Source: Halorussus limi | Lineage (GTDB): Archaea > Halobacteriota > Halobacteria > Halobacteriales > Haladaptataceae | Length of the DNA: 24,000 bases | NCBI RefSeq assembly: GCF_023238205.1 | Contig: NZ_CP096659.1 | Location: 1,791,626 to 1,815,625 of the forward strand | Direction of reading: 5' to 3' | In this document: piece by piece, positions 205 through 14,791 of the stretch | How positions within the stretch are numbered: the stretch's first letter is position 1 | Layout of the letters: each line of letters opens with the position of its first letter | Notes under the pieces: model-generated | What the model was told of the DNA's origin: nothing | Database searches by the model: none | Seen by the model: only the letters and a program-made list of their open reading frames with translations | Program-made: the position numbers and the translations under genes

Positions 205-1269
205 GTGATATTCAGTGTCAGCGGAGATGAGGGTACTCTCGAGGATATAGAGGAGAAAGATCTCGCGGATTTAGGTTTCCTTGAGCGCCAGGATCTCCAA
301 AAGTGGGCTATCGAAGAACCACGAATCCTCGGAGAGGATCTCCTCATCATCACTTCCGAGTACGCTAATTTCGAGGATACACGCGACCGATTAGACATCC
401 TCGCCTTAGATTCACAGGGTAAGCTAGTCATTGTAGAACTGAAACGGGACCGTGCGGATCGAACTACGGATCTCCAAGCTATCAAGTATGCTAGCTACTG
501 CGCGACCCTCACGGCCGAGGACATCCAGAAAGACCATCGGGAGTTCTGGAATGACCGGAACGACGACTCCATCGGACCTGAGGAAGTCGGTCAAACGTTC
601 GCAGATTTCTTAGACGACAGCGTCACTGGAGAGGTCCCCCTGACGGACAATGGATGGGCGAATTTCGAGCTCGACGATAAGCCTAGAATCTTGTTGGCTG
701 CGGGGAGCTTCGGAACCGAAATTACCTCGCCTGTGATGTGGCTCATTGAGGAGTACGGGATGGAGATTACCTGTACCCGTATTGAAGCCTACGAACACCA
801 AGACCGAATCCTCCTGAACAGCCAGCAGGTCATCCCCGTATCCGAAGCAGAGGAGTACATGACCAAGCGACGAGAGAAACAAGAGAAACAGGAGTCAACC
901 AGTCGCCGTAAGTGGGCGCTTCCCGTCCTCCTTGATCGCGGCGTTCTAGTTCCTGGTGATATCGTTGTCTTTGACGAAGAACAAGTGCCTGAGGGAGTCA
1001 AGCGGGAGTGGAACCCAGAAGATGAGTTTTGGCGGGCGCGAATCACGGGTGAAACGGGCCAGCAGGACAACGTAGAATGGTTACATGACGGTAACACCTA
1101 CTCCTTCACTGGTCTCACGAAAGAGCTTCTCCACCAACTTGTGAATCGCGACCGAGATAAGACGCTTAACGGGTACACGTACTGGTGCCATCCGGAGTTC
1201 GACGACCGGACGCTTAGTAATCTCCGCAATAGCAAAGTCACCGCCCCTGACCGAGAAGAGCCGATGTAG
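205..1269 (+). CDS. PD-(D/E)xK nuclease-like protein (NucS/DUF91-like core) with a C-terminal RAMA-like domain
   Basis: 354-aa ORF with a GTG start. An AAATAAAAT TATA-like box lies ~25 nt upstream. Core motif: RLDILALDSQGKLVIVELKRD ... DLQAIKYASY (D...ExK...QxxxY). The C-terminus (LLDRGVLVPGD...WLHDGNTYSFTGLTKELL...NGYTYW) resembles the restriction/methylase-associated RAMA pattern. Confidence 0.7.
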   Translation: MIFSVSGDEGTLEDIEEKDLADLGFLERQDLQKWAIEEPRILGEDLLIITSEYANFEDTRDRLDILALDSQGKLVIVELKRDRADRTTDLQAIKYASYCATLTAEDIQKDHREFWNDRNDDSIGPEEVGQTFADFLDDSVTGEVPLTDNGWANFELDDKPRILLAAGSFGTEITSPVMWLIEEYGMEITCTRIEAYEHQDRILLNSQQVIPVSEAEEYMTKRREKQEKQESTSRRKWALPVLLDRGVLVPGDIVVFDEEQVPEGVKREWNPEDEFWRARITGETGQQDNVEWLHDGNTYSFTGLTKELLHQLVNRDRDKTLNGYTYWCHPEFDDRTLSNLRNSKVTAPDREEPM

Positions 1270-1271
1270 AC

Positions 1272-2222
1272 TCAATCTATCTGGCGAAGCCGTTCCGGGA
1301 AAACGTCATGAAACCGTTTGCCGTATTCTAACATCCAGTCGAAATACTCATCCCACTGCTCTCGATTTTCGATGTCAGCTTCACGAGCCACGCGAATATT
1401 ACTCCGCATATTACCCCCACGTGTCTCCCGGGGTTCAACCCACTCAACATCCGTCCTCAATTCGCTTTCGATTGCCTCTTTCTCGGATTTCAGCCCTTGG
1501 AATGCCTCTTCATTGTCCTTGATAATGAGTTCAAGTCTGAGGTCCTGTTCTTTCCAATAGATGCCGAATGAGATGTGGTACCCGCTTTTCCCGATTGGAT
1601 TGCTATAATAGTGACGTGGTTTTGGCTTTCGTGCTCGAAGAGGAGATGATGAGGCTTGAATACGATTCCGAAACTCGGTCCAGAACTCCTCTTGAAGCTG
1701 TTTCGTTTCGCTCAGTTCACCCTCCCTCCGTTTCGCTTTCTCCTTCCATTCACTCGGCTTTTCAACTGGATTCAGACGGACAGCGGGTGGAGAGTCTTCG
1801 ATGCGCCATACCTCGAGACGAATCGCAAATAGGTCTACACCTTCTCGACTATTCTCGTTAACCCATTGGACGGCATCTCGATGCTCGTCGTTGAATCTGG
1901 GGGCGACCCAGACGATGATGTCAGCGTCAACCCCAGCAGCGTACGCTATCGCTTTACCGAGGTGGTCATGGTCAGAGTCATTCAACTGATTCTCGATAAC
2001 TACGTTCCGCCCATCATCAATAACTCGTGCAAAAATGTCAACGTTGTACTTTCCGACACTCTTCTCGCGCTCAATCACTTCTAAATCTAAGCCAAGTACA
2101 TTCTCCAGTTCAGAAGAGTCTTCAGCTACTATCTCCTCAGCTAGCCAAGGAGTGAATTCGCGTTCCTCATGTTCCCAGTAATCTCGTACGTCTTGAGAGG
2201 TAAGTGACGCGAAACTGGACAT
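1272..2222 (-). CDS. DUF4268-type protein with an N-terminal PD-(D/E)xK-like core
   Basis: 316-aa ORF. YNVDIFARVIDDGRNVVIENQLNDSDHDHLGKAIAYAAG matches the D...ENQ...DH.HLGK..TY signature of this family. The C-terminal half (EFWTEF...YYSNPIGKSGYHISF) is DUF4268-like. It converges on the previous gene with a 2-bp gap. Confidence 0.75.
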   Translation of the reverse strand: MSSFASLTSQDVRDYWEHEEREFTPWLAEEIVAEDSSELENVLGLDLEVIEREKSVGKYNVDIFARVIDDGRNVVIENQLNDSDHDHLGKAIAYAAGVDADIIVWVAPRFNDEHRDAVQWVNENSREGVDLFAIRLEVWRIEDSPPAVRLNPVEKPSEWKEKAKRREGELSETKQLQEEFWTEFRNRIQASSSPLRARKPKPRHYYSNPIGKSGYHISFGIYWKEQDLRLELIIKDNEEAFQGLKSEKEAIESELRTDVEWVEPRETRGGNMRSNIRVAREADIENREQWDEYFDWMLEYGKRFHDVFPERLRQID

Positions 2223-2954: not shown

Positions 2955-3596
2955 ATGATTAGTGTGCCTAATTCAGAGAAAATAATAGCCTGGATCCAAG
3001 CGTTCCTTACACAATCGTTCATCCGACTCTTCAAACGGTCAAAACCGGAGGAAAAAGAAGAGCTTTCACTACTGGACGAACCGACCACCGTCTATCCGTT
3101 TCGGAGTGACAGGGCTCTTTTTGGCCAAGCAACTCCGTTCGACACGATCATCTGGAACAAAACCCGGACAGAGAAACTGTCGAAGAAGGCCAAACGACTT
3201 GTGCTCCATCATGAGTGTAGCCACAGAGACCGAAACCCAATCTACAAGGGAGTGTTCCTTGGGATGGCCGTGTCGTTTGCCGCCGGGTGTCTGCTACTCC
3301 TCAAGGCTGTATTAGCCCTCCTTCTCGGGGCATCTTTGCACAACCTGATGCAACCGACAGCCGTTGCCTTCACTATGATGGGGACGTTTCTGGTCCTCTT
3401 CCGGATCGAAGAGACCATCGCAGACTACCATGCGCTCTGCGAGCTGGGCGAAGAAGGGTTCATCGACGCATACGAGGAAATCGCACTCATGAGTGATAAT
3501 TCTCTCCGGAATCAGATTATGGGAAAGCTACTTTACACCCACCCTGAGGATACTGTCCGCATCTACCGATTGCGTCAGCGGTTTGCTCCGTCGTAA
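2955..3596 (+). CDS. Membrane Zn-metalloprotease, M48 (HtpX/Ste24)-like
   Basis: 213-aa ORF. It has HHECSH (HExxH), then hydrophobic segments (VFLGMAVSFAAGCLLLLKAVLALLLGA; AVAFTMMGTFLVLF), then EETIAD (ExxAD) and a terminal THPEDTVRI (THPxxxxRI). A TTTAGT box lies ~22 nt upstream of the ATG. Confidence 0.65.
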   Translation: MISVPNSEKIIAWIQAFLTQSFIRLFKRSKPEEKEELSLLDEPTTVYPFRSDRALFGQATPFDTIIWNKTRTEKLSKKAKRLVLHHECSHRDRNPIYKGVFLGMAVSFAAGCLLLLKAVLALLLGASLHNLMQPTAVAFTMMGTFLVLFRIEETIADYHALCELGEEGFIDAYEEIALMSDNSLRNQIMGKLLYTHPEDTVRIYRLRQRFAPS

Positions 3597-5402: not shown

Positions 5403-5477
5403 GACCTGACGTTTCAAAGAGCCACCATAAAAAGTTAGTCCCGAACCGCGTTCTCCAGAGATGGTGGAGCTCAGTCA

Positions 5478-5495
5478 CCGTTGTTGGTGGCATGT
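5478..5495 (+). repeat. Motif copy A: CCGTTGTTGGTGGCATGT
   Basis: Read directly from the sequence. It is 17/18 identical to copies B and C. It shares the prefix CACCG with copy B. Confidence 0.85.
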
Positions 5496-5571
5496 AAGTA
5501 GCAGGTGCAAATGTGACTCGGGATATAGAAAACCAGTACTTACTAACCACGAGGGTTCTTTAGAGGTGTAC

Positions 5572-7068
5572 ATGAATTCTCGGGATCGGACTCTGGATGA
5601 ATTAGTGGAGCAGTTTATGGCAAACCCGGGGTCGGCCGAGTCAGAACAATTAGATTTCAAAGCTAAGGAAATAGTTGAGTCCACCGAAGGTAAGCGCGAT
5701 CTTGCGAAGAAAGCGTCTGCAATCGCCAACACAAACGGAGGGACAATTGTCGTTGGAGTGGGTGAAGGTAGTCGTGAAGATATTATTCAGTCGTTCGATG
5801 CTCGATCTGAAATCAAGCGTGATCTTGCGAGCGTATTCCGAGATAACACAAAACCGCCCTTAGACCGACTAACAGAGATAAATATAGAGACGTTGTCGAT
5901 GGGTGCTCGACTGCTAAGGATTGATATTCAGCCTTCTAATACATATCCGATTGAGTTCTATAATCGAGATTCCGACGAATATGTCCCATATCACCGTGTT
6001 GAAGATACGACTCGCGAGATGGCTACTAGTGACATTGTAGAATTCACGAAAAGGCATTCACAGCCGGGAGCAAGTGGGGAGGTTGATCTTGAGGAGTCAA
6101 TCACCGTCAGGACATCTGATATTCAGCTATTCAATGACTCAGACCCAAGAAAATCGCCTGACCATCGGGCAATCCTAAATATAGATCAACACGGTTTGGT
6201 TGTACCAGCAAAGGCATATATTGATAATTCATTCCACAAGTCTTTGACTTTTCATGTGGAAAAGCGCGCTGAGAAAAGAGGTCTTTCGGGTTTGAAGGGA
6301 TTACTGAGGGAAGCCGAGGAGGAATTGAATGCCGATCTCGGATTTGACTTTGGATACGCGATTAAATACGGAACAAAGGAGCTTATCGGAAGAAATTCCG
6401 ATAACTATATTCAGGATATCCAAAACCTTGAGAAAACACTTGAGTTGTTAGGCTGGGAGGACAACAGCGACCCTCGACCCATTGCTATCGCGGGAACACG
6501 ATGTGATTTCGGATTCATTTGGTTTCAGGCTCAATATCATACTGGTAGTCTCTCAAGAATCAAATGCGGACTGATGATGAGTGATATTCCAATAAATAAC
6601 AGCCCACTTAGTTCCGTATTCGGCAACGAGTGGTATGAGCAACACAATTCCCTGAGAAGCGTTCAGCTACGACTGCGTGGCGATGAGGTATCATTATCAA
6701 ACCCAAGAGAGGTTCTTTTAGATGAATCCAGTGGTGCAGGCCGGACAGAGATAATCGCAGATAATCCGTACTTCCAAAATAAGGAAGCAATACTGGAATC
6801 CATAGATAATGACGCTCTTGAACCCTTTATAAATGCAATCTGTGCTGTCGATAGATTACCCTTCGATGTGCGCGGGGGCTACTCCAGTAAGGACATATAT
6901 CACTCTGTCGGCGAGATTCAAATGAGCTATATTCACGCTGTTGTACCTGCATACTTTGTCTGGCCAATGTCTGATCCTCACGTAGTACCTCCCTCTGAAG
7001 ATCCTCCAACCCCGGACTGGCTCGACTCGCTTGGCTCAGACGATGCAGACGAGCGTTCCGATGAATAG
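5572..7068 (+). CDS. AlbA_2 (Schlafen-type) domain protein with an uncharacterised ~360-aa C-terminal region
   Basis: Start moved to the ATG at 5572 (MNSRDRTLDEL), because the upstream 37 codons run through motif copy A. SAESEQLDFKAKE...LAKKASAIANTNGGTIVVGVGEG matches the AlbA_2 signature (E..EFK ... AfANt.GG.i.iGv). I recognise no motif in the C-terminal region. Confidence 0.7.
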   Translation: MNSRDRTLDELVEQFMANPGSAESEQLDFKAKEIVESTEGKRDLAKKASAIANTNGGTIVVGVGEGSREDIIQSFDARSEIKRDLASVFRDNTKPPLDRLTEINIETLSMGARLLRIDIQPSNTYPIEFYNRDSDEYVPYHRVEDTTREMATSDIVEFTKRHSQPGASGEVDLEESITVRTSDIQLFNDSDPRKSPDHRAILNIDQHGLVVPAKAYIDNSFHKSLTFHVEKRAEKRGLSGLKGLLREAEEELNADLGFDFGYAIKYGTKELIGRNSDNYIQDIQNLEKTLELLGWEDNSDPRPIAIAGTRCDFGFIWFQAQYHTGSLSRIKCGLMMSDIPINNSPLSSVFGNEWYEQHNSLRSVQLRLRGDEVSLSNPREVLLDESSGAGRTEIIADNPYFQNKEAILESIDNDALEPFINAICAVDRLPFDVRGGYSSKDIYHSVGEIQMSYIHAVVPAYFVWPMSDPHVVPPSEDPPTPDWLDSLGSDDADERSDE

Positions 7069-7176
7069 CTGAATTCAGTATCGAGAACGGCCTCTGTACT
7101 GATACTCTCCGCCGATTTCCCACTTTTCTGAAATTGACACCTCTGGTCGAGTCACAGTCACCGACGCCGCTACCCA

Positions 7177-7194
7177 CCGCTGCTGGTGGCATGT
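7177..7194 (+). repeat. Motif copy B: CCGCTGCTGGTGGCATGT
   Basis: Read directly from the sequence. It lies 108 nt after the AlbA_2 stop, in the convergent intergenic region before the helicase gene's 3' end. Confidence 0.85.
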
Positions 7195-7378: not shown

Positions 7379-9385
7379 CTATATCCCGGTCAGGTCGAGG
7401 TAGCCATCCTCCGGGATGTCGCCGTCGAGCATGTAGAGGTACTCGTTGCTCTTCTGCGGGCTCGGACCCCGGTTCACCAGCCCGACATCCATCAGGGTGG
7501 AGAGGAACTGTCGGACGCCCTGTGGGCTGTCGTGCGTGCCGGATACGCTGACGATCTCGGTCGCGGACGACGCCGGGTTCTCACGGAGGTAGTTAACGAC
7601 GGCCTTCTGCTTCTCGGTGTACTTCGTCGGGGTGCTGATCGTGGTGTCCACCATCCCGTCAGGAATCATCGACGTGCGGACGAACACGAGTGCCCGAGGA
7701 GAGTCGTCTTCACGTGCGTACCGACCGATCGCCTGAGCGGTACTGTTCTTCCGGACTGCGTCAAGGATTTTCTTGGCTTTGTCGGCGTCGGGACCTTCGA
7801 ACGCACGGCCGACTCGCTCGGGGTTGCCTTCACAGACGGGGCATTCGTCGCCGCCGCAGTCAGGGCCGCACAGCGTCAACGGTGCGGCGTCGAGACCACG
7901 GGCCGCCAGCAGGTCGAGGACGTAGTCGTCGCCCGGGTCGATGGAGTGGGTGACGTAGCCGAACTTGTGGTGGGAGAACGCGCCGTTGCTTTTCGTACTC
8001 CCACGGGGCATGACCTCTTCGCCGTCGACGAGCTGTTCGACCATCGGCTCCATCGCGTTCGTGGAGATGACGGATTCGAAGTCGTCACCGTACTTGTAAC
8101 GGAGCATCTCGAGCGTGATTTTCTCGGCCGTCTCGTCGACGTTGTGGGTCACGGCGTAGTCCGAGGAGGCGGGTTTGGCCCCGGTGCCGATCTGGACGAC
8201 TTCCAGCCCTCGCTCGTTGACCCGCCACTGGGTGAACGCCTCGTCGTCGATGAACGTGTCGAACTTGATGCCGTCGCCGATGTTCATCCGCCACTCGTGG
8301 ATCGACGGCCAGGCGTCGAGACAGATGATGCTCCGAGCGTTACCCATCTCGGGGATGTCCCAGTACGCTTGCGGCCGGTTCTCGTTGTCGACGACGACCG
8401 TGATTCGGTTGCGACTGTAGCGGAAGTCATCGTCGTCGTTCGCGTCGAATCGGGAGAGTTCGTTGACCGCATATCCAGACCGCCGGCCGTGCGACCCGGG
8501 CTCGTCGTTGAGTGCCCGGTACATGGCCTTGGTGAGTGCAGGCGCCAGTGTGTGGGCGGAGTCGTTCTCGATGAACCAGTCGGGGTCGATCTGGGGTGGG
8601 TCGTCGAGCACCTCGTAGAGCGATTCGAGCCCATCGTCGGCCATCGTGACGAACATTTCCCACGTCTTCACGGGGGCGTCGATCTTCTTGAGCCACGCCG
8701 TGACGATGTCCTGGAACTTCGCCCGTGTCATGTCGTCGTTGTTCCGGTCTCCGATACTCCGCTTGAAGCTGGGGAGCTCGTCCCAGATCATGTTCACGTC
8801 CTGGACCAGGCTCGGGACGTAGGCGAAGTTGTGCTGGGCGTGGACGACGTCCACGGCCGGGTCTCCGTCGTCGTCGCGAGGAATGTCCGACCACTGTTCG
8901 ATGGAGGGGCACGGACAGCACGGAAGGTCGCCGTCGTTGTAGTCTTCGAGGTACTGGTGAGTCTTGCTGAGCGTGTTCCCCGACTCCTCCATCTGCTTGT
9001 GCATCCACTCGCTTGCCGGCTCACCAGTCGGAGTGTTCACGACGCCGTCGTAGTCGCCACTGTAGGTGTTGCACGCTTCGCCGCGGCCCAGGAGACGGTG
9101 GTAGTCGATGTCGTGAGCGTTGCTCTTCCTGACCGCTTTGTCCCGTGCGTCGGTACTGTAGTGGAGGTGGACGACGGGCTCGTCGCCAGTGGCGTGGGGG
9201 AGCTCCGTCCAGTTGGTCGTCGCACCGTTGTACGTTTTCCCGGTTGAGGTAGGTGCGACCATCACCGTGAACGCCCCATTCGACATGTATTCACGGATCT
9301 TTCTCGTGAGCTTCGACTGGAGCTCTTCGGTGGTTGGCCAACCGGAGTCGTTAGAAAGTACATCTAGCCCGGTCGCCAGCGACAT
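7379..9385 (-). CDS. SF2-helicase-like P-loop NTPase with a Cys cluster and C-terminal winged helix; putative replication protein of the element
   Basis: 668-aa ORF. Motifs: Walker A (VAPTSTGKT), Walker B-like (MIWDELP), helicase motif VI-like (QAIGRYAR), a Zn-like cluster (CGPDCGGDECPVCEG), and a C-terminal wHTH-like stretch (KQKAVVNYLRENPASSATEIVSVSG...LSTLMDVGLVNR). Its start overlaps the RHH stop (TAATG). Confidence 0.8.
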   Translation of the reverse strand: MSLATGLDVLSNDSGWPTTEELQSKLTRKIREYMSNGAFTVMVAPTSTGKTYNGATTNWTELPHATGDEPVVHLHYSTDARDKAVRKSNAHDIDYHRLLGRGEACNTYSGDYDGVVNTPTGEPASEWMHKQMEESGNTLSKTHQYLEDYNDGDLPCCPCPSIEQWSDIPRDDDGDPAVDVVHAQHNFAYVPSLVQDVNMIWDELPSFKRSIGDRNNDDMTRAKFQDIVTAWLKKIDAPVKTWEMFVTMADDGLESLYEVLDDPPQIDPDWFIENDSAHTLAPALTKAMYRALNDEPGSHGRRSGYAVNELSRFDANDDDDFRYSRNRITVVVDNENRPQAYWDIPEMGNARSIICLDAWPSIHEWRMNIGDGIKFDTFIDDEAFTQWRVNERGLEVVQIGTGAKPASSDYAVTHNVDETAEKITLEMLRYKYGDDFESVISTNAMEPMVEQLVDGEEVMPRGSTKSNGAFSHHKFGYVTHSIDPGDDYVLDLLAARGLDAAPLTLCGPDCGGDECPVCEGNPERVGRAFEGPDADKAKKILDAVRKNSTAQAIGRYAREDDSPRALVFVRTSMIPDGMVDTTISTPTKYTEKQKAVVNYLRENPASSATEIVSVSGTHDSPQGVRQFLSTLMDVGLVNRGPSPQKSNEYLYMLDGDIPEDGYLDLTGI

Positions 9386-9672
9386 TATTCTCCCCCGAGT
9401 TTGCGTTCGAGCTCCATCCGCTCGTCAAGACGGTCTTGGAGGAAATGGCTGAGATTGACCCGCTCTTCGTACAGGAACTCATCGAGATTCTCACCTATGC
9501 GAATCGCCTTACGCTCCATAGGGGCCTGGCGTTTTTTGCGGCTTGATGGAAACTCCTCCCCCTCCTCATACCACGTTTTGATTTTATCCCTGGCCCACGA
9601 GCTGAAGTTGAGGTGCGTATCTTCGACGAAAGCCGCTTGGTCCTCACGTATCGTAACAGATTTCCGAACCAT
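9385..9672 (-). CDS. Tandem ribbon-helix-helix (CopG/Arc-like) DNA-binding protein
   Basis: 95 aa with two RHH-like modules: KSVTIREDQAAFVEDTHLNFSSWARDKI and KAIRIGENLDEFLYEERVNLSHFLQDRL. It is translationally coupled to the helicase gene. Confidence 0.75.
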   Translation of the reverse strand: MVRKSVTIREDQAAFVEDTHLNFSSWARDKIKTWYEEGEEFPSSRKKRQAPMERKAIRIGENLDEFLYEERVNLSHFLQDRLDERMELERKLGGE

Positions 9673-10131: not shown

Positions 10132-10149
10132 ACATGCCACCAGCAACGG
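10132..10149 (-). repeat. Motif copy C (minus orientation): CCGTTGCTGGTGGCATGT
   Basis: The plus strand reads ACATGCCACCAGCAACGG. It lies 12 nt from the LAGLIDADG stop codon. It shares a contiguous 17-mer (TGCCACCAGCAACGGCG) with copy D. Confidence 0.85.
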
Positions 10150-10161
10150 CGGATCGCTCCG

Positions 10162-10656
10162 TCAGGGTTGGTCTGCATCCTCGATTACCGCGATGAGCTC
10201 GTCCGCCGACAGGGACGACGGCGCCGACATGTAGTTGATGTCGTCCTTCAGCTGGACGAGTTCCTCCAAGTCGGACTTTGAGAGGGAGTAGCCCGGTTCA
10301 AGGATGTCAAGGGCCTCCGACCAAGTCTCGAACGCCTCGTGTTTCTTGGAGGTGGTGAAGAGGGAACCGCTGGCGACGTGCTCCTCAATCAGCTCACGCA
10401 ACGTGTGACGTTCGTCTCGGCTCGACAACACCCATCGGTATCCTTTGCTGTCGCTCGTCACCGAACCCAACGCGAACCGAGAACGAAATTGATTGAGGAG
10501 GTCTTCTTCATACACACCCATGGTAAGTGAGAAACGCGGGCCGATGTCGAGGTTGTACGCGTACCGGTCGTCGACAGTAGTCGTTAGGTAGAAACTTCCC
10601 TCCCCGGCAATGAATCCGAGGGTGAACGCCAATGACTGATTGTCTAACGCCGTCAT
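10162..10656 (-). CDS. LAGLIDADG-family homing endonuclease, single-motif (homodimer-type), free-standing
   Basis: 164 aa from the ATG at 10656 (MTALDNQSLAFTLGFIAGEGSFYL). LGFIAGEGSF matches the LAGLIDADG motif with the terminal acidic residue as Glu. The size is similar to I-CreI-type enzymes. The longer GTG start at 10770 only adds an unconvincing N-terminal extension. Confidence 0.7.
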   Translation of the reverse strand: MTALDNQSLAFTLGFIAGEGSFYLTTTVDDRYAYNLDIGPRFSLTMGVYEEDLLNQFRSRFALGSVTSDSKGYRWVLSSRDERHTLRELIEEHVASGSLFTTSKKHEAFETWSEALDILEPGYSLSKSDLEELVQLKDDINYMSAPSSLSADELIAVIEDADQP

Positions 10657-10887
10657 CACAGGGTCTCCGGACGGAGTGTATGGAACGTCAACCGACGTAA
10701 GTTTTAGCCTCGGTGGAATCACTAACCGCTGATAAATTCTGGGGAGATTTACTGCTATAAGAAATCCCACCTAAAACCCTGGTTTTTGGACGAGGTTTTA
10801 TCTGTCTGTAAAAGCCGTATAAGCACTTCTCATGCCCTGGCACTTTGGCGAATGAGGAAGTTCCAGTCGCCGAACTGTGGTGATGTA

Positions 10888-11261: not shown

Positions 11262-11279
11262 ACGTGCCACCAGCAACGG
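11262..11279 (-). repeat. Motif copy D (minus orientation): CCGTTGCTGGTGGCACGT
   Basis: The plus strand reads ACGTGCCACCAGCAACGG. It lies 29 nt after the stop of the 10888-11232 gene. Confidence 0.85.
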
Positions 11280-11636
11280 CGTCTTGACCAACGTGGGGTT
11301 AGAGACCAAGGGAGGGAGTCGTGGCCTCGTATTCTTCACAAAACTCCTCCTCGCCGTACCGAGTGTAGAGCGCGACCATGTCGCCGTTGGTGTTCTCGTG
11401 GAGCGCGGTGATGGTGTCGTGTGGACAATGTTCTAGTCGAATCACGACGTGAAGCGGTAACCGACGTCGTGATTACATGACATCGTTCTGCGACCGGAGT
11501 TGGTCATATTTCCGTCCGTGTACCACGTAGCATCTTCCAGAGACGTCTACGTGAACACTTAACATAATCGACCGTGAAGAAACACGACAGACCTTCGATG
11601 CCTTTGGTCGACAAGACGGAAAGATGGTGAAATACG

Positions 11637-12518
11637 ATGGCTGAAATCGGTGCCCAATGGGACGCCATCGGCCCTTGGTGGGACGATTACGTACAAGAAC
11701 AAGAGAGAGGTCTGATTGAGCTTCGAGAGTTGCTGGAAGAGCTCAATCAGACGTGGAAACAGAGCGGAAGCAAGTTCGACGAAGATCCACTGATAGGCGA
11801 TTGGTCAGAGACGAGTCCGCAAGCTGGTCCACTGCGGACAAACCAAGAGGAAAACTGGTCGCAGTGGCTGGCTCATCTTCTTCGGGACTCAACGGGGGAA
11901 TTCTCCGCCAAGTTACTTGACTCCCACTTCGACACCGCTCCCACTCACGTTCGTTGCGAGCGCGCCTACCACGATGAAGAGCTCCACGATCGACGGGTAG
12001 ACATACTCGCGGAGTTCGGGAGCCAAGGCGTGACGATTGAGGTCAAAATAGGGGACGAGCACTACGAGAAGACGCCACAGACGGCGTACCTGACGGAGAA
12101 GCACCACCAACGAAATCTGGACTGGACACACTATCTGCTTCTCCCAGACTCAAGAGAAGATGCGCTACAAGACGCTTTTAGCGAACGACTGACTGACGAC
12201 GAAAATCGTGAGCCAACAATTACCGCCACGGTGCCGGAAGAACGGGAAATAACTGTCATCTACTGGTCCGAGGTTGCACAAGCCCTCCGCAGAACGCTTC
12301 TCGCCGACATCGAACACAGTACGCACTGGGCCGCGAGCGCCTACCTGTTCACCACGCTAATCGAAGAGCAGATTCTTCAGCTTTACGCGCTTCCCTCGCT
12401 GGAAGACTACCGTACCGCGTCGATCAGTATTTCCGACATTGAACGGCTTCAATCGATCAACCCAGACGACCAAATTCAGTATCTTGACGCCCTCTTGGAG
12501 GAGATTAACCATGGATGA
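11637..12518 (+). CDS. PD-(D/E)xK nuclease-like protein (PDDEXK_4-like architecture)
   Basis: 293-aa ORF. EENWSQWLAHLLRDS is followed by RRVDILAEFGSQGVTIEVKIGDEHYEKTPQTAYL (D...ExK...Q..Y). Its stop overlaps the start of the next gene (ATGGATGA). Confidence 0.65.
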   Translation: MAEIGAQWDAIGPWWDDYVQEQERGLIELRELLEELNQTWKQSGSKFDEDPLIGDWSETSPQAGPLRTNQEENWSQWLAHLLRDSTGEFSAKLLDSHFDTAPTHVRCERAYHDEELHDRRVDILAEFGSQGVTIEVKIGDEHYEKTPQTAYLTEKHHQRNLDWTHYLLLPDSREDALQDAFSERLTDDENREPTITATVPEEREITVIYWSEVAQALRRTLLADIEHSTHWAASAYLFTTLIEEQILQLYALPSLEDYRTASISISDIERLQSINPDDQIQYLDALLEEINHG

Positions 12519-13101
12519 AGATTTCATCACGAACGGTCTGGAATCGGATCGGTATCTGAAGGCAACGAAACTGGTTCACAGCTTTGAGTCGGAGGTGACA
12601 GAGACGATAAATCAGGTGTGTCGGGAGATTATCGATGTTCATTCCGAGCTCTTCGACGAAGACGTGGATCTCGAAGAGAAAGTGCTGGGCGCAGATGCCA
12701 GCCAAACGTTGGCGACGAACCGAACCGAGTTCGCGATGAACTTCGAAAATGAAGACGGTGACAACCCAAAGCTGAACATTGCTCTGGAATGGGTCGAACC
12801 AGGACAACAAAACGAAGAAGCTGGATTACACGGCGGCTCACTCTGCTACGCAATGTACAAAATACAACACGGATCTGAAGCTCGGTTCGAGACGGTGAGA
12901 GAATGCACAGAGTCCCAAGACAGATGGGACCAGCTCCGATTTGGAGAGGACCAGTGGTATCATTACTCGAAACACGCGCCCGGTATCGTGTACCTCCCGG
13001 TCGAAAGTGGCCAAGAGTTCGTTGACGCTCTCCAGACGCTTAGGAGGCACTTTTCGAAGGAGTACGCACCCTTGATTAGCGAACAAACCCCGTCATCGTA
13101 G
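12511..13101 (+). CDS. Hypothetical protein, translationally coupled partner of the PD-(D/E)xK gene
   Basis: 196 aa from the ATG at 12511 (MDEDFITNGLESDRYL...), overlapping the upstream gene by 8 bp. Composition is acidic. No family was recognised. Confidence 0.6.
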   Translation: MDEDFITNGLESDRYLKATKLVHSFESEVTETINQVCREIIDVHSELFDEDVDLEEKVLGADASQTLATNRTEFAMNFENEDGDNPKLNIALEWVEPGQQNEEAGLHGGSLCYAMYKIQHGSEARFETVRECTESQDRWDQLRFGEDQWYHYSKHAPGIVYLPVESGQEFVDALQTLRRHFSKEYAPLISEQTPSS

Positions 13102-13291
13102 TTCCGTAGCTCGGTTTGAGCCTCGGGAGGTTACTGGGGTTGAGCCGGTGCGAGAGCCGACCTCCGACGCGCGCGCATGCCAACAGTAACACTAGAATGC
13201 CGAAGGGCGTTGAGCCCAATCAGCGTGTAACGTACTCCAAGACCTCTGGTCGGCATGGGTTCACCCCGACGTCGCGGTCGGTGGCTACCAG

Positions 13292-14293
13292 TCAGATGCC
13301 GTTGAGATATTCTCTCCGTAGCTCCATTTTCTCTCGTTTAGTCCGTTTGTCGTAGTGTTTGTCGAGTACGTTGCCGCTCATATCCAGCCGTTCAGATGCG
13401 ACCTCTTTCGGAACATCCTGCTTCCGAAGTGCTGTCGCTGCACCTTTACGGAGCGCGTGGGGTGCAACGCTCGACGGACACTTGCTGGCGGTGTTGTAAC
13501 TCGTCGCTTCACACTCCTGGAGATCCCGATCGTGTGGACACTCGTTCGTGTAGTGGCATGGACGCGTAACTGTGTAGATATTCCGCTGGATTGTCGTGTA
13601 GTGGAGGCGACCTTGCGTCCCACCAAGTAACGGCATCCGTCCGTACTCGTCCTCGACGTATGGGTGATGCATATCGAGGAAGGCGTCAAGGACCGAGGCA
13701 ACGTCGTCGTTGATGTACACGTCGCGCTCGCTCCGCTCTTTATTCTTGAGCGGTGTTTCTTCATCTGGTCTGTGTCGCAGCGAGAGTACGTTCGCCCGAT
13801 TGTCGTAGTCGCCGATGTCTAGACCCGTTAGGGCACTTGCTCGCATCCCCGTGTGCCAGAGGATGTAGAAAGCGGTGTGACGAAGCGTCGCGTACTCGTA
13901 GTCTTCGCAGTATTCGAGAATCATCTCCGCTTCTTTCTGGAGGATGTGCACGTCACTCACGTCTTCACCCAGTTGTATCGTTGGGAGCCGGATTTTTCGG
14001 CCGACGCCTTTTGGGGCGACGTTGATGTCTTCGCAGAACTCGACGAACTGACGAACAGTACTCAGGTGGTTCTTGACGGTCACTTTTGCTACGTCGCCCA
14101 TTAGCCATTGTTTGAACTCTTGGAGTAGGCTTCCGGTGATTTCGTTCATGTCGTCGAGTCCGACCTCGTCGGTCCAGGTGAGGAATTTGTCGAGTCGGTA
14201 CTTGTGGTTCTGAGCGGTTGCCGCGGCGAGTTCTTGCTGCACTTCAGCTAGGTATTCGTTGACCGCTTCTCGCGGTGACGTTGGTTCGAGCAT
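13292..14293 (-). CDS. Tyrosine recombinase / phage-type integrase
   Basis: 333-aa ORF with an N-terminal SAM-like core-binding region. Catalytic signatures: HTGMRASAL (Arg I), HALRKGAAT (HxxR), and VLDKHYDKR (Tyr). A Cys/His-rich insertion (CHYTNECPHDRDLQEC...KC) precedes box II. The gene is intact, so it is not a split SSV-type integrase. Confidence 0.9.
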   Translation of the reverse strand: MLEPTSPREAVNEYLAEVQQELAAATAQNHKYRLDKFLTWTDEVGLDDMNEITGSLLQEFKQWLMGDVAKVTVKNHLSTVRQFVEFCEDINVAPKGVGRKIRLPTIQLGEDVSDVHILQKEAEMILEYCEDYEYATLRHTAFYILWHTGMRASALTGLDIGDYDNRANVLSLRHRPDEETPLKNKERSERDVYINDDVASVLDAFLDMHHPYVEDEYGRMPLLGGTQGRLHYTTIQRNIYTVTRPCHYTNECPHDRDLQECEATSYNTASKCPSSVAPHALRKGAATALRKQDVPKEVASERLDMSGNVLDKHYDKRTKREKMELRREYLNGI

Positions 14294-14445: not shown

Positions 14446-14492
14446 CTTCCGAGCAAGCGAAGAGGCCCTGGGTTCAAATCCCAGCGAGTCCA
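14446..14492 (+). tRNA. Partial tRNA: 3' portion of a tRNA-Ala-like gene (corrupted anticodon arm, variable loop, T-arm, acceptor 3' strand). Putative attR.
   Basis: The sequence AGGCC CTGGG TTCAAAT CCCAG CGAGTCC A reads as variable loop, perfect 5-bp T-stem, canonical T-loop and acceptor 3' strand. The T at position 70 would give the G3:U70 Ala identity pair with a GGGCTCG 5' strand; A73 is the discriminator. Upstream, CTTCC GAGCAAG CGAAG is a damaged anticodon arm. No D-arm or 5' acceptor strand occurs upstream, so this is not a complete gene. Confidence 0.6.
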
Positions 14493-14526
14493 CTTCTTTC
14501 GGCTCACTTCGTTCGCTCCAGTCGAC

Positions 14527-14579
14527 GGACTCGCTGACCTTCGCGAACGGACCGTATTCGCTTGATTCTAGCGAGTCCA
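14527..14579 (+). pseudogene. Possible second, heavily decayed tRNA-Ala-like remnant
   Basis: GGACTCG ... CCTTCGCGAA ... TTGATTCTAG CGAGTCC A. The 7-nt ends pair perfectly as an acceptor stem. AGCGAGTCCAC is an exact 11-bp repeat of 14484-14494. The internal sequence resembles an Ala anticodon-loop region, but the D-arm and T-loop are missing or degenerate. Confidence 0.3.
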
Positions 14580-14791
14580 CGAGATTTTCGCGACGCAACG
14601 ACGAGTGTTCGCGATTTCTCGCAGTTATCCGCTCACTGTCTTGCGGTTAGAGAGAATTGCGGATTTCCGACTACTGACCGCGCCTCCTCGTTTGGCCGAC
14701 CGTGTTCTTCCTCGACGAGGACGGCGACTGTTGCCAACCGGGCACTGACTTATCACAAACCTTCTTTTTCCTCGCATCTCCGTACAGCGAT

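What the first reader, a model, noticed from the sequence alone, without database searches (positions are those of the whole stretch)
11637..13101. Translationally coupled two-gene operon: PD-(D/E)xK nuclease-like protein plus an unknown partner
The 293-aa protein has a PDDEXK_4-like layout (W..WLAHLL, then VDILAEF...TIEVKIGD...QTAYL). Its stop overlaps the start of a 196-aa protein with no recognisable motif (ATGGATGA, an 8-bp overlap), which implies stoichiometric co-expression. The operon sits directly beside the integrase, a common location for defence or superinfection-exclusion cargo. It lies between motif copy D and a possible degenerate copy. This is my best candidate for an undescribed two-component nuclease system in the window.
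Basis: partly seen in the sequence, partly recalled or inferred. Interest (0 to 1): 0.65.

Follow-up and report, generated by a model that had tools for sequence, protein, structure and literature searches.

The report
Conserved nuclease-plus-partner gene pair
Two overlapping genes beside the integrase of a haloarchaeal genomic island encode a predicted DNA-cutting enzyme and an unknown small partner; the same unannotated pair recurs in salt-loving archaea and many bacterial phyla, often among anti-virus genes, so it is a credible but untested new defence module.

Summary
ORF1 (11637-12518, 293 aa) and ORF2 (12511-13101, 196 aa) overlap by 8 nt (ATGGATGA) and end 190 nt from a convergent integrase, inside a low-GC island.

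ORF1 has the PD-(D/E)xK signature. E71, E72, D122, E135 and K137 are invariant in 40 of 40 homologues from archaea and bacteria. The AlphaFold model has an alpha-beta-beta-beta-alpha-beta core. Foldseek hits are weak but nearly all restriction-like nucleases.

ORF2 has a confident alpha/beta sandwich model, no significant structural match and no conserved catalytic-type residue.

The pair is strictly linked. Every intact ORF1 homologue with enough flanking DNA (Halobacteria and about ten bacterial phyla) has an ORF2 homologue directly downstream, mostly overlapping it. The two families co-evolve, and no other neighbour is conserved.

Neighbours often include McrBC, Hachiman, DISARM, BREX, Ssp, restriction-modification or CRISPR-Cas genes, integrases and transposases. 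Neither protein matches Pfam, NCBIfam, PADLOC or PHROGs, and I found no paper on them.

Best reading: an undescribed two-subunit nuclease module, probably anti-MGE defence. That function is inferred, not shown.

The parts
11637..12518 (+). ORF1, 293 aa: predicted PD-(D/E)xK nuclease subunit. N-terminal long helix with one W-x5-D-x-W-W unit, a nuclease core at about residues 70-222, and a C-terminal helical region.
   Evidence: ORF and sequence. 104 homologues. Invariant E71, E72, W74, S75, D122, E135, K137, D140, K145, T146, W210, R218, W231 and E243 in 40/40 sequences. AF2 model pLDDT 88.9 with H71-84, E104-111, E119-127, E130-136, H143-156, E162-169. Foldseek hits nearly all PD-(D/E)xK nucleases, best E 6e-3.
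11847..12047 (+). Codons for the putative active site: E71/E72 (11847-11852, core helix), D122 (12000-12002, strand 2), E135-V-K137 (12039-12047, strand 3).
   Evidence: Coordinates computed from the ORF1 start. Invariance. Position on secondary-structure elements.
12511..13101 (+). ORF2, 196 aa: non-catalytic partner subunit of unknown fold family (alpha - 4 beta - alpha - 2 beta - alpha sandwich). The most conserved part is the N-terminal helix, F-I-x-x-G-L-x-x-x-R-Y-x-x-A-x-x-x-V-x-x-F-E.
   Evidence: AF2 pLDDT 86. No significant Foldseek match in PDB or BFVD. No PDB sequence match. Homology to bacterial partners by hhalign, E 2.7e-6 at 88.5% probability over 139 columns, and an end-to-end joint alignment.
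12511..12518 (+). 8-nt start/stop overlap ATGGATGA (ORF2 ATG 12511-12513; ORF1 TGA 12516-12518).
   Evidence: The same 8-nt overlap occurs in most archaeal loci, and 4-, 8-, 11- or 14-nt overlaps in most bacterial loci.
12497..12503 (+). GGAGGAG, a Shine-Dalgarno-like run inside the 3' end of ORF1, 7 nt before the ORF2 ATG. A possible coupling or re-initiation signal (inferred).
   Evidence: Read. Function not tested.
11626..11630 (+). GGTGA, a weak Shine-Dalgarno-like run 6 nt before the ORF1 ATG (inferred).
   Evidence: Read. The bacterial-type promoter scan is uninformative for an archaeon.
13292..14293 (-). Context only, not part of the module: tyrosine integrase of the island, convergent with ORF2.
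   Evidence: Pfam Phage_integrase 1.4e-9 and Phage_int_SAM_1 1.8e-8. An integrase lies near the pair in only some other loci (L005, L008, L049).

Best explanation
ORF1 and ORF2 form an autonomous, horizontally mobile two-gene module. ORF1 is a metal-dependent PD-(D/E)xK endonuclease, with a catalytic site built from E71/E72 on the core helix, D122 on strand 2 and E135-x-K137 on strand 3. ORF2 is a non-enzymatic subunit made by translational coupling. I propose that it binds ORF1 through its conserved N-terminal amphipathic helix. I propose that the complex is an innate anti-MGE (virus or plasmid) defence nuclease carried as cargo on integrative elements, megaplasmids and defence islands. In this model the slowly evolving ORF1 is the DNA-cleaving effector, and the faster-evolving ORF2 is the regulatory or sensing subunit that gates or targets it. 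Shown: the operon structure, conservation of the catalytic motif, strict linkage and co-evolution of the two genes, variable neighbourhoods rich in MGE and defence genes, and absence from the annotation libraries. Inferred: complex formation, nuclease activity, the defence role, and which subunit senses.
For: Operon and overlap. PD-(D/E)xK signature invariant in 40/40 archaeal and bacterial homologues. An alpha-beta-beta-beta-alpha-beta core in a confident model. Foldseek hits are almost all restriction-like nucleases (AF1548, R2 RLE domain, R.BspD6I, Can2, Cdn1, MGME1, NotI, McrC, HamA, LmuA). The hhalign register matches PDDEXK_4 proteins. Strict pairing from the ORF1 side, in 13 archaeal and 26 bacterial loci. 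Strict pairing from the partner side: in L047 the upstream gene is an ORF1 homologue (E 1e-49), and in L048 ORF1 is split by an IS. Only the two families are conserved across loci. Co-evolution with Mantel r 0.91 and 0.52, 0 of 2000 permutations as high. The partner diverges faster, 21% against 38% identity among bacteria. It has no invariant polar or catalytic residue. Defence and MGE context: McrBC next to the pair in Haladaptatus and Haloquadratum; Hachiman, TIR and RM genes in L047; type I-B cas genes, an integrase and DUF499 on Hrr. lacusprofundi pHLAC01; BrxHII, DrmA/D, HmaA, mad2, type I MTase, SspC and type IV REase among neighbours; a Schlafen-AlbA_2 protein, a NucS-like nuclease, a DUF4268 protein and the integrase in the window itself. 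Two divergent copies occur in single MAGs (L012/L014 and L022/L027).
Against: There is no experimental datum. Structural matches for ORF1 are all weak (E >= 6e-3, TM <= 0.36). Many bacterial neighbours are housekeeping genes. I could not compute defence-island enrichment against a background. The family is absent from phage and viral collections, which is neutral for defence. It is rare: 199 partner clusters among 1.84 billion representatives. No interaction model could be run. ORF2 shows no recognisable sensor, ATPase or DNA-binding domain.
Confidence: 0.55

Rival explanations
1. Toxin-antitoxin or addiction module. ORF1 is a nuclease toxin and ORF2 a protein antitoxin that neutralises it, stabilising the island or megaplasmid (post-segregational killing), possibly with abortive-infection activity.
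For: Bicistronic, overlapping and mobile, found on megaplasmids and integrative elements with variable neighbours. The partner has no catalytic residues and co-evolves with the nuclease. An AbiEii gene lies nearby in L048.
Against: In two loci ORF2 is frameshifted into a pseudogene while ORF1 and its catalytic residues are intact: L050, a complete Halalkalicoccus plasmid with two frameshifts, and L008. This should be lethal if ORF2 were an essential antitoxin, although sequencing error is not excluded. The opposite decay also occurs: in L048 ORF1 is split by an IS and ORF2 is intact. The putative antitoxin is downstream, large (160-196 aa) and has no detectable DNA-binding domain. There are no hits to TA or Abi models in PADLOC or Pfam.
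Confidence: 0.15
2. A methyltransferase-independent restriction enzyme (type IV-like or type II-like heteromer). ORF2 would be the DNA- or modification-recognition subunit rather than a sensor of infection. This is a mechanistic variant of the defence reading.
For: No methyltransferase is conserved next to the pair. Foldseek hits include restriction enzymes and the two-subunit R.BspD6I. The pair repeatedly neighbours McrBC-type and type IV enzymes.
Against: ORF2 has no known DNA-binding fold, and its charge is inconsistent across bacterial homologues (pI 4.8-10.1). It has no similarity to SRA, YTH, winged-helix or other modification readers.
Confidence: 0.15
3. An element-encoded DNA-processing enzyme serving the mobile element itself (recombination, replication-intermediate resolution or excision helper), or a host repair nuclease with an accessory subunit. 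Not immunity.
For: It lies next to the integrase here and near integrases or transposases in several loci. PD-(D/E)xK enzymes include resolvases and recombination exonucleases (established knowledge; Steczkiewicz et al. 2012, PMC3424549).
Against: The pair is not linked to any particular integrase, replication or recombination gene; no third gene family is conserved. Many bacterial loci have no MGE genes nearby. It is absent from all viral and phage collections. Its distribution is patchy and rare with inter-domain transfer, which does not fit housekeeping repair.
Confidence: 0.1

Closest known systems
Pfam PDDEXK_4 (PF14281), a PD-(D/E)XK family of unknown function (Steczkiewicz et al. 2012, PMC3424549)
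   Same: The order and register of motifs are the same in a profile-profile alignment with two PDDEXK_4 proteins: E-x-x-W helix, R-x-D-I strand, I-E-x-K strand, H-Y-L-x-L strand and Y-W-x-x-V helix. Two of 49 family members give sub-threshold PF14281 hits. PDDEXK_4 genes sit directly upstream of the pair in L009 and L013.
   Different: The window protein has no PF14281 hit at E <= 1. The hhalign result is only 35% probability, E 4e-4. The PDDEXK_4 neighbours are 426-486 aa stand-alone proteins. No obligatory ORF2-like partner is known for PF14281.
Hachiman (HamA nuclease + HamB helicase) and similar two-gene nuclease defence systems
   Same: A two-gene operon in which a PD-(D/E)xK-type effector is controlled by a partner. 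HamA (8zue) is among the weak Foldseek hits. The pair sits beside a Hachiman system in L047.
   Different: The partner here is 160-196 aa with no helicase or ATPase motif. Neither protein hits any PADLOC model.
Heterodimeric restriction endonuclease R.BspD6I (large nickase plus small subunit, PDB 2p14 / 2ewf)
   Same: A two-subunit nuclease. Both BspD6I subunits appear among ORF1's Foldseek hits.
   Different: Both BspD6I subunits have the restriction-endonuclease fold and work with a methyltransferase. ORF2 has a different fold, no catalytic residues and no conserved methyltransferase neighbour.
Shedu (SduA, DUF4263), a single-gene PD-(D/E)xK defence nuclease
   Same: A PD-(D/E)xK effector with extra non-catalytic regions thought to regulate it; a defence-island resident (established knowledge).
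   Different: Shedu is a single gene. There is no PADLOC or Pfam DUF4263 hit. Here the regulatory part would be a separate polypeptide.
Type II toxin-antitoxin operons
   Same: Small overlapping bicistron, mobile, with co-evolving partners.
   Different: The gene order and sizes are atypical, there is no DNA-binding antitoxin domain, and ORF2 pseudogenes coexist with intact ORF1.
YbjN / DR_1245 / type III secretion chaperone-like proteins (for ORF2 only)
   Same: A helix - antiparallel sheet - helix sandwich. DR_1245 (4h5b) aligns over 173 columns with TM 0.38 and 0.48. Such proteins act by binding partner proteins (established knowledge).
   Different: Foldseek E is 0.11 and there is no sequence similarity. 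Coproporphyrinogen oxidase scores equally well, so the fold assignment is not secure.

Membership tests
PD-(D/E)xK phosphodiesterase superfamily (ORF1) | Core alpha-beta-beta-beta-alpha-beta fold | tested here: met
   The AF2 model (pLDDT 88.9, pTM 0.87) has H71-84, E104-111, E119-127, E130-136, H143-156 and E162-169 in that order.
PD-(D/E)xK phosphodiesterase superfamily (ORF1) | Catalytic signature: acidic residue on the core helix, D on strand 2, (D/E)-x-K on strand 3 | tested here: met
   E71/E72, D122 and E135-V-K137 lie on those elements and are invariant in 40/40 archaeal and bacterial homologues.
PD-(D/E)xK phosphodiesterase superfamily (ORF1) | Significant structural or sequence similarity to solved members | tested here: inconclusive
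   About 40 of the top 50 Foldseek PDB hits are PD-(D/E)xK nucleases, but the best is E 5.9e-3 with TM <= 0.36. The family profile finds nothing among PDB sequences.
PD-(D/E)xK phosphodiesterase superfamily (ORF1) | Metal-dependent phosphodiester cleavage | not testable with these tools
   Needs a biochemical assay.
Pfam PDDEXK_4 (PF14281) | Score above the Pfam gathering threshold (22.3 bits) | tested here: not met
   The window protein has no hit at E <= 1. Only 2 of 49 family members hit, best E 0.017. Bacterial homologues have no hit.
Pfam PDDEXK_4 (PF14281) | Profile-profile homology with bona fide members | tested here: inconclusive
   hhalign of A1 against two PF14281 proteins gives E 4e-4 at 34.8% probability over 128 columns, with all motifs in register. 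The template profile is very shallow.
RecB/Cas4-like nucleases | Conserved QxxxY motif after the ExK strand | tested here: not met
   Q148 and Y151 of 'QTAYL' vary across the family; only T149 and L152 are conserved.
Known anti-phage defence systems (PADLOC-DB v2.0) | Match of either protein to a model of a known or candidate system | tested here: not met
   No meaningful hit: none for the window pair; among five bacterial pairs, one ORF1 homologue has weak partial PDC-S02 matches (E 0.005-0.008).
Anti-phage defence systems (generic) | Residence in defence islands or MGE cargo regions | tested here: inconclusive
   Many loci have McrBC, Hachiman, DISARM, BREX, Ssp, RM, CRISPR-Cas, integrases or IS elements within 5-8 kb. 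Many bacterial neighbours are housekeeping genes, and no background-corrected enrichment could be computed.
Anti-phage defence systems (generic) | Protection against virus or plasmid challenge | not testable with these tools
   Needs an experiment.
Type II toxin-antitoxin | The toxin gene is not maintained intact without a functional antitoxin gene | tested here: not met
   L050 has two frameshifts in ORF2 and L008 has one, while ORF1 is intact in both. Assembly error is not excluded.
Type II toxin-antitoxin | Antitoxin with a DNA-binding (HTH, RHH or AbrB) domain, usually encoded first | tested here: not met
   ORF2 is downstream. It has no Pfam or NCBIfam domain and no such fold among its Foldseek hits.

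The most novel reading that the evidence does not exclude
The pair is a new defence system shared by Archaea and Bacteria. ORF2 would have a fold not yet represented in the PDB and act as the infection sensor, recognising a viral protein or nucleic-acid feature. It would release or activate a divergent PD-(D/E)xK nuclease that destroys invader (or host) DNA. It would then be one of the few innate immune modules with experimentally tractable homologues in haloarchaea, for example Halorubrum lacusprofundi pHLAC01 HLAC_RS16240/16245.
Probability: 0.4. Interest if true: 0.7.

Novelty: new variant of a known kind. Interest (0 to 1): 0.55.

Why it matters
If the pair is a defence system, it adds a compact two-protein nuclease module with a partner of unknown fold to the prokaryotic immune repertoire. 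It is one that crosses the archaea-bacteria boundary. Archaeal immunity beyond CRISPR and restriction-modification is poorly explored experimentally. This module has homologues in cultivated haloarchaea (Haladaptatus litoreus, Halovivax gelatinilyticus, Halorubrum lacusprofundi, Halobaculum limi, Halorientalis marina), where virus-host systems exist. Both proteins are currently 'hypothetical' everywhere and lie outside Pfam, NCBIfam, PADLOC and PHROGs. Even a family definition (two new DUF-type families that always co-occur) would improve annotation. If it proves to be a toxin-antitoxin or an element-maintenance module, the result is more ordinary.

Tried and rejected
- Pfam, NCBIfam, PADLOC and PHROGs scans of both window proteins, and Pfam and PADLOC scans of five bacterial pairs, gave nothing significant.
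- Profile searches of PDB sequences with the ORF1 family (A1) and the partner family (A6) found nothing.
- Foldseek of ORF2 against PDB and BFVD gave only weak, mutually inconsistent hits: coproporphyrinogen oxidase, DR_1245, bilin reductases and phage hypotheticals.
- The exhaustive profile search with the partner family looked for fusions to known domains. There were 199 hits, essentially all stand-alone proteins of 150-195 aa. The two long hits have many short repeated matches and look spurious.
- IMG/VR and the INPHARED phage collection contain no ORF1 relative. Bacterial plasmids in PLSDB have none either; only four haloarchaeal megaplasmids do.
- Literature searches by locus tag, protein accession, inferred old locus tags Hlac_3336/3337, PF14281 and generic terms found no paper on these proteins.
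- The DefensePredictor systems said to have Halobacteria homologues (DS-26 NERD, DS-29 HEP3, DS-41 AAA2) are single-gene systems of other types, not this pair.
- I looked for a third conserved gene and found none.
- I tested linkage to the island's 20-nt repeated motif and rejected it: the motif is absent from all 52 related loci.
- I looked for a tRNA att site next to the integrase. ARAGORN and Rfam found nothing convincing. Only a T-arm-like fragment and a low-stringency intron-containing prediction turned up.
- The antisense ORFs 12505-12810 and 12838-13086 are shadows of ORF2, 'conserved' only because ORF2 is.
Full report
**1. Observation**

The window is a mosaic. Positions 1 to about 14,600 have 45-63% GC. 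The rest has 65-72% GC, typical of a haloarchaeal chromosome.

ORF1 runs from ATG 11637 to TGA 12518 and is 293 aa. ORF2 runs from ATG 12511 to TAG 13101 and is 196 aa. They share the 8 nt ATGGATGA.

The mechanical ORF list starts ORF2 at an upstream TTG. All 25 homologues begin M-D/N-E-x-F-I/V-T, which fixes the ATG at 12511. A GGAGGAG run lies 7 nt upstream of that ATG, inside ORF1.

The tyrosine integrase (13292-14293, minus strand) is convergent, 190 nt away.

**2. ORF1 is a divergent PD-(D/E)xK nuclease**

No curated library recognises it (Pfam, NCBIfam, PADLOC, PHROGs). It has 104 homologue clusters in hypersaline genomes and metagenomes. A genome scan added 27 bacterial relatives at about 30% identity. 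These come from Myxococcota, Bacteroidales, Planctomycetes, Verrucomicrobia, Acidobacteria, Spirochaetes, Gemmatimonadales, Aminicenantes, Proteobacteria and an actinobacterial MAG.

I aligned 13 archaeal and 27 bacterial sequences to the family profile. Sixteen positions are invariant in all 40: E71, E72, W74, S75, L78, D122, E135, K137, D140, K145, T146, L168, W210, R218, W231 and E243.

The AlphaFold2 model is confident (pLDDT 88.9, pTM 0.87). It places E71/E72 on a helix, D122 on the second strand and E135-x-K137 on the third strand of an alpha-beta-beta-beta-alpha-beta unit. That is the canonical restriction-endonuclease-like core.

Foldseek against the PDB gives no strong match (best E 5.9e-3, TM <= 0.36). 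The hit list is nevertheless almost entirely PD-(D/E)xK enzymes: AF1548, the R2 retrotransposon endonuclease domain, R.BspD6I, Can2, Cdn1, MGME1, NotI, MspJI, McrC, HamA and LmuA.

The 'PDDEXK_4-like' idea is right only as a distant relationship. Two of 49 members give sub-threshold PF14281 hits. A profile-profile alignment with two genuine PDDEXK_4 proteins, which happen to sit next to the pair in L009 and L013, gives E 4e-4 at 35% probability, with every motif in register. The 'QTAYL' motif is not conserved, so this is not a RecB/Cas4-type QxxxY nuclease.

**3. ORF2 is a real, conserved protein of unknown kind**

It has 25 close haloarchaeal homologues and a confident model (pLDDT 86). The model is a long N-terminal helix, a four-stranded antiparallel meander, a helix, two more strands and a long C-terminal helix.

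Foldseek finds nothing significant in the PDB or BFVD. The best PDB hits are coproporphyrinogen oxidase (E 0.015) and the YbjN-like DR_1245 (E 0.11, TM 0.38/0.48). A family profile finds no PDB sequence.

Across archaeal and bacterial partners, the conserved positions are hydrophobic or structural apart from R14 (F5, G9, R14, Y15, A18, F25, F48, W94, Y113, Y116, P163, L177). There is no invariant acidic or histidine residue. This argues for a binding or regulatory subunit rather than an enzyme. Bacterial partners range in pI from 4.8 to 10.1, so the protein is neither a consistent DNA mimic nor a consistently basic DNA binder.

**4. The two genes are one unit**

- In all 13 archaeal loci with an intact ORF1 homologue, the next gene is an ORF2 homologue (HMM E 1e-26 to 1e-96). 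The overlap is usually the same 8 nt.
- Four haloarchaeal megaplasmids show the same arrangement, including Halorubrum lacusprofundi pHLAC01 HLAC_RS16240/16245.
- In every bacterial locus with enough downstream DNA (26 loci), a 156-177 aa ORF follows directly, mostly overlapping by 4, 8, 11 or 14 nt.
- These 26 ORFs are mutually homologous. They are related to the archaeal ORF2 family: hhalign E 2.7e-6 at 88.5% probability over 139 columns, and an end-to-end joint alignment.
- Sampling from the partner side gives the same answer. Upstream of partner P0130 is an ORF1 homologue (E 1e-49). Upstream of P0133 is an ORF1 homologue split by an IS.
- Clustering all predicted genes of 43 loci shows that nothing else is conserved in more than three loci.
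- Pairwise identities of the two families are correlated: Mantel r 0.91 in archaea and 0.52 in bacteria, with 0 of 2000 permutations as high. The partner diverges faster, 21% against 38% identity among bacteria.
- Two MAGs carry two divergent copies each.
- The partner family is rare: 199 clusters at E <= 1e-3 among 1.84 billion representatives. It is always stand-alone.

**5. Context**

In the window the pair is cargo of an integrase-bearing island. The island also encodes a Schlafen/AlbA_2 protein (5461-7068), a NucS-like nuclease (205-1269), a DUF4268 protein (1272-2222), an M48 peptidase-like protein and a free-standing LAGLIDADG endonuclease.

Elsewhere the pair lies beside:
- McrBC, in Haladaptatus and Haloquadratum;
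- Hachiman, a TIR/SEFIR protein and an AlwI-type RM system, in L047;
- type I-B cas genes, an integrase and DUF499, on pHLAC01;
- an N6-methylase, in Halorientalis;
- a DUF262 protein, in Halobaculum.

PADLOC models hit neighbours as BrxHII, DrmA/DrmD, HmaA, mad2, type I methyltransferases, SspC and type IV restriction enzymes. Many bacterial neighbours are ordinary metabolic genes, and I could not compute an enrichment against background. The association with defence islands is therefore suggestive, not proven. The family is absent from viral collections.

**6. Mechanism**

The best-supported model is a two-subunit nuclease. ORF1 carries the active site. ORF2 is made by translational coupling, binds ORF1 and gates or targets it.

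I favour an immune (anti-virus or anti-plasmid) role, for five reasons:
- the mobility and patchy inter-domain distribution;
- the variable neighbourhoods rich in defence and MGE genes;
- the paralogous diversification within genomes;
- the fast-evolving partner;
- the precedent that PD-(D/E)xK effectors dominate newly validated systems (PMC13092281).

A plain toxin-antitoxin reading is weakened by two loci in which ORF2 is a frameshifted pseudogene while ORF1 is intact (L050 in a finished plasmid, and L008). The reverse decay occurs in L048. Neither gene therefore seems to be required to tolerate the other, although assembly errors cannot be excluded.

A type IV-like restriction reading, with ORF2 as the DNA reader, is a variant I cannot exclude. 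An element-maintenance or recombination role lacks any conserved partner gene.

**7. Known or new**

Neither protein matches Pfam (2025 copy), NCBIfam release 20, PADLOC-DB 2.0 or PHROGs. All database names are 'hypothetical protein', apart from one automatic UniProt label, 'PD-(D/E)XK nuclease superfamily protein'.

Text searches by accession, locus tag and family found no paper. The DefensePredictor systems with Halobacteria homologues are of other types.

I therefore rate it a new variant of a known kind: a nuclease-effector two-gene candidate defence module. The nuclease fold is familiar. The partner and the pairing appear undescribed. There is no functional evidence, which limits the interest score.

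Noticed in passing
window 5476-5495 (-), 7175-7194 (-), 10132-10151 (+), 11262-11281 (+): A 20-nt motif, ACATGCCACCAGCAACGGCG, occurs four times with 0-2 mismatches (expected 0.01). Two copies are in each orientation, in or next to intergenic regions. The pairs 7163-7194 / 10132-10163 form a 32-nt, 81% complementary inverted repeat bracketing the 668-aa and 95-aa genes. There is no similarity beyond about 22 nt. The motif is absent from all 52 related loci, so it belongs to this island, not to the gene pair.
   Followed up: partly
N-termini of ORF1 homologues P0042-P0100 (e.g. P0060, P0073, P0088: positions 10, 45, 80); window ORF1 residues 8-15: Longer haloarchaeal ORF1 homologues (355-400 aa) carry two or three tandem copies, 35 aa apart, of the unit W-x3-6-D-x-W-W that occurs once in the window protein (WDAIGPWW). 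This N-terminal repeat expansion has unknown function. W8, W14 and W15 fall below 90% conservation once the 27 bacterial homologues are added to the alignment.
   Followed up: partly
window 14455-14493 and 14565-14580: A tRNA T-arm-like sequence (CCTGGGTTCAAATCCCAGCGAGTCCAC) lies just beyond the integrase. The 16-mer ATCCCAGCGAGTCCAC recurs at 14565-14580 with 88% identity. ARAGORN (default) and Rfam find no tRNA. Only a low-stringency ARAGORN run proposes a tRNA with an 81-nt intron. This could be an att site or tRNA remnant marking the island's right end. The left end is outside the window.
   Followed up: partly
window 10162-10770 (-): A free-standing LAGLIDADG homing endonuclease gene (Pfam 8e-7; PADLOC HEase 2.8e-11) lies inside the island, with no obvious host gene or intron around it.
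   Followed up: no
window 205-1269 (+), 1272-2222 (-), 2955-3596 (+), 5461-7068 (+): Other cargo of the island: a NucS_C-like PD-(D/E)xK protein (354 aa), a DUF4268 protein (316 aa, with a homologue near the pair in L008), an M48 peptidase-like protein and a Schlafen/AlbA_2 protein (535 aa). The island looks like a small collection of nuclease and defence-type genes.
   Followed up: partly
window 7379-9385 (-) and 9385-9672 (-): A 668-aa protein sits in a locally higher-GC segment (59-63%) of the island. It matches phrog_27506 at 9e-20, has a weak C-terminal MarR-like wHTH, and has a homologue near the pair in L009. It overlaps by one base with a 95-aa ORF downstream. It may be the element's replication or partition protein. 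Function unknown.
   Followed up: no
L009:4159-5616 and L013:8354-9631: Genuine Pfam PDDEXK_4 proteins (E 1.7e-9 and 2e-18) lie immediately upstream of the pair in two haloarchaeal loci. A distant paralogue of ORF1 is therefore sometimes adjacent to it.
   Followed up: partly
L050 (NZ_CP144124.1 222743-223300), L008:4802-5373, L048:194-2295: Decayed copies exist. ORF2 has two frameshifts (Halalkalicoccus plasmid) or one (MAG QS_8_69_73) next to an intact ORF1. In L048 ORF1 is split by an rve-family IS next to an intact ORF2.
   Followed up: yes
window 11440-11474: A perfect 11-bp inverted repeat (AATCACGACGT ... ACGTCGTGATT, 13-nt loop) lies 165 nt upstream of ORF1. It could be a terminator of the upstream gene or an operator. 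It is not repeated elsewhere in the island.
   Followed up: no
window 13110-13216: Three copies of GGTTGAGCC-like 11-13-mers (13110, 13134, 13206) lie in the 190-nt spacer between ORF2 and the integrase stop codons. Significance unknown.
   Followed up: no
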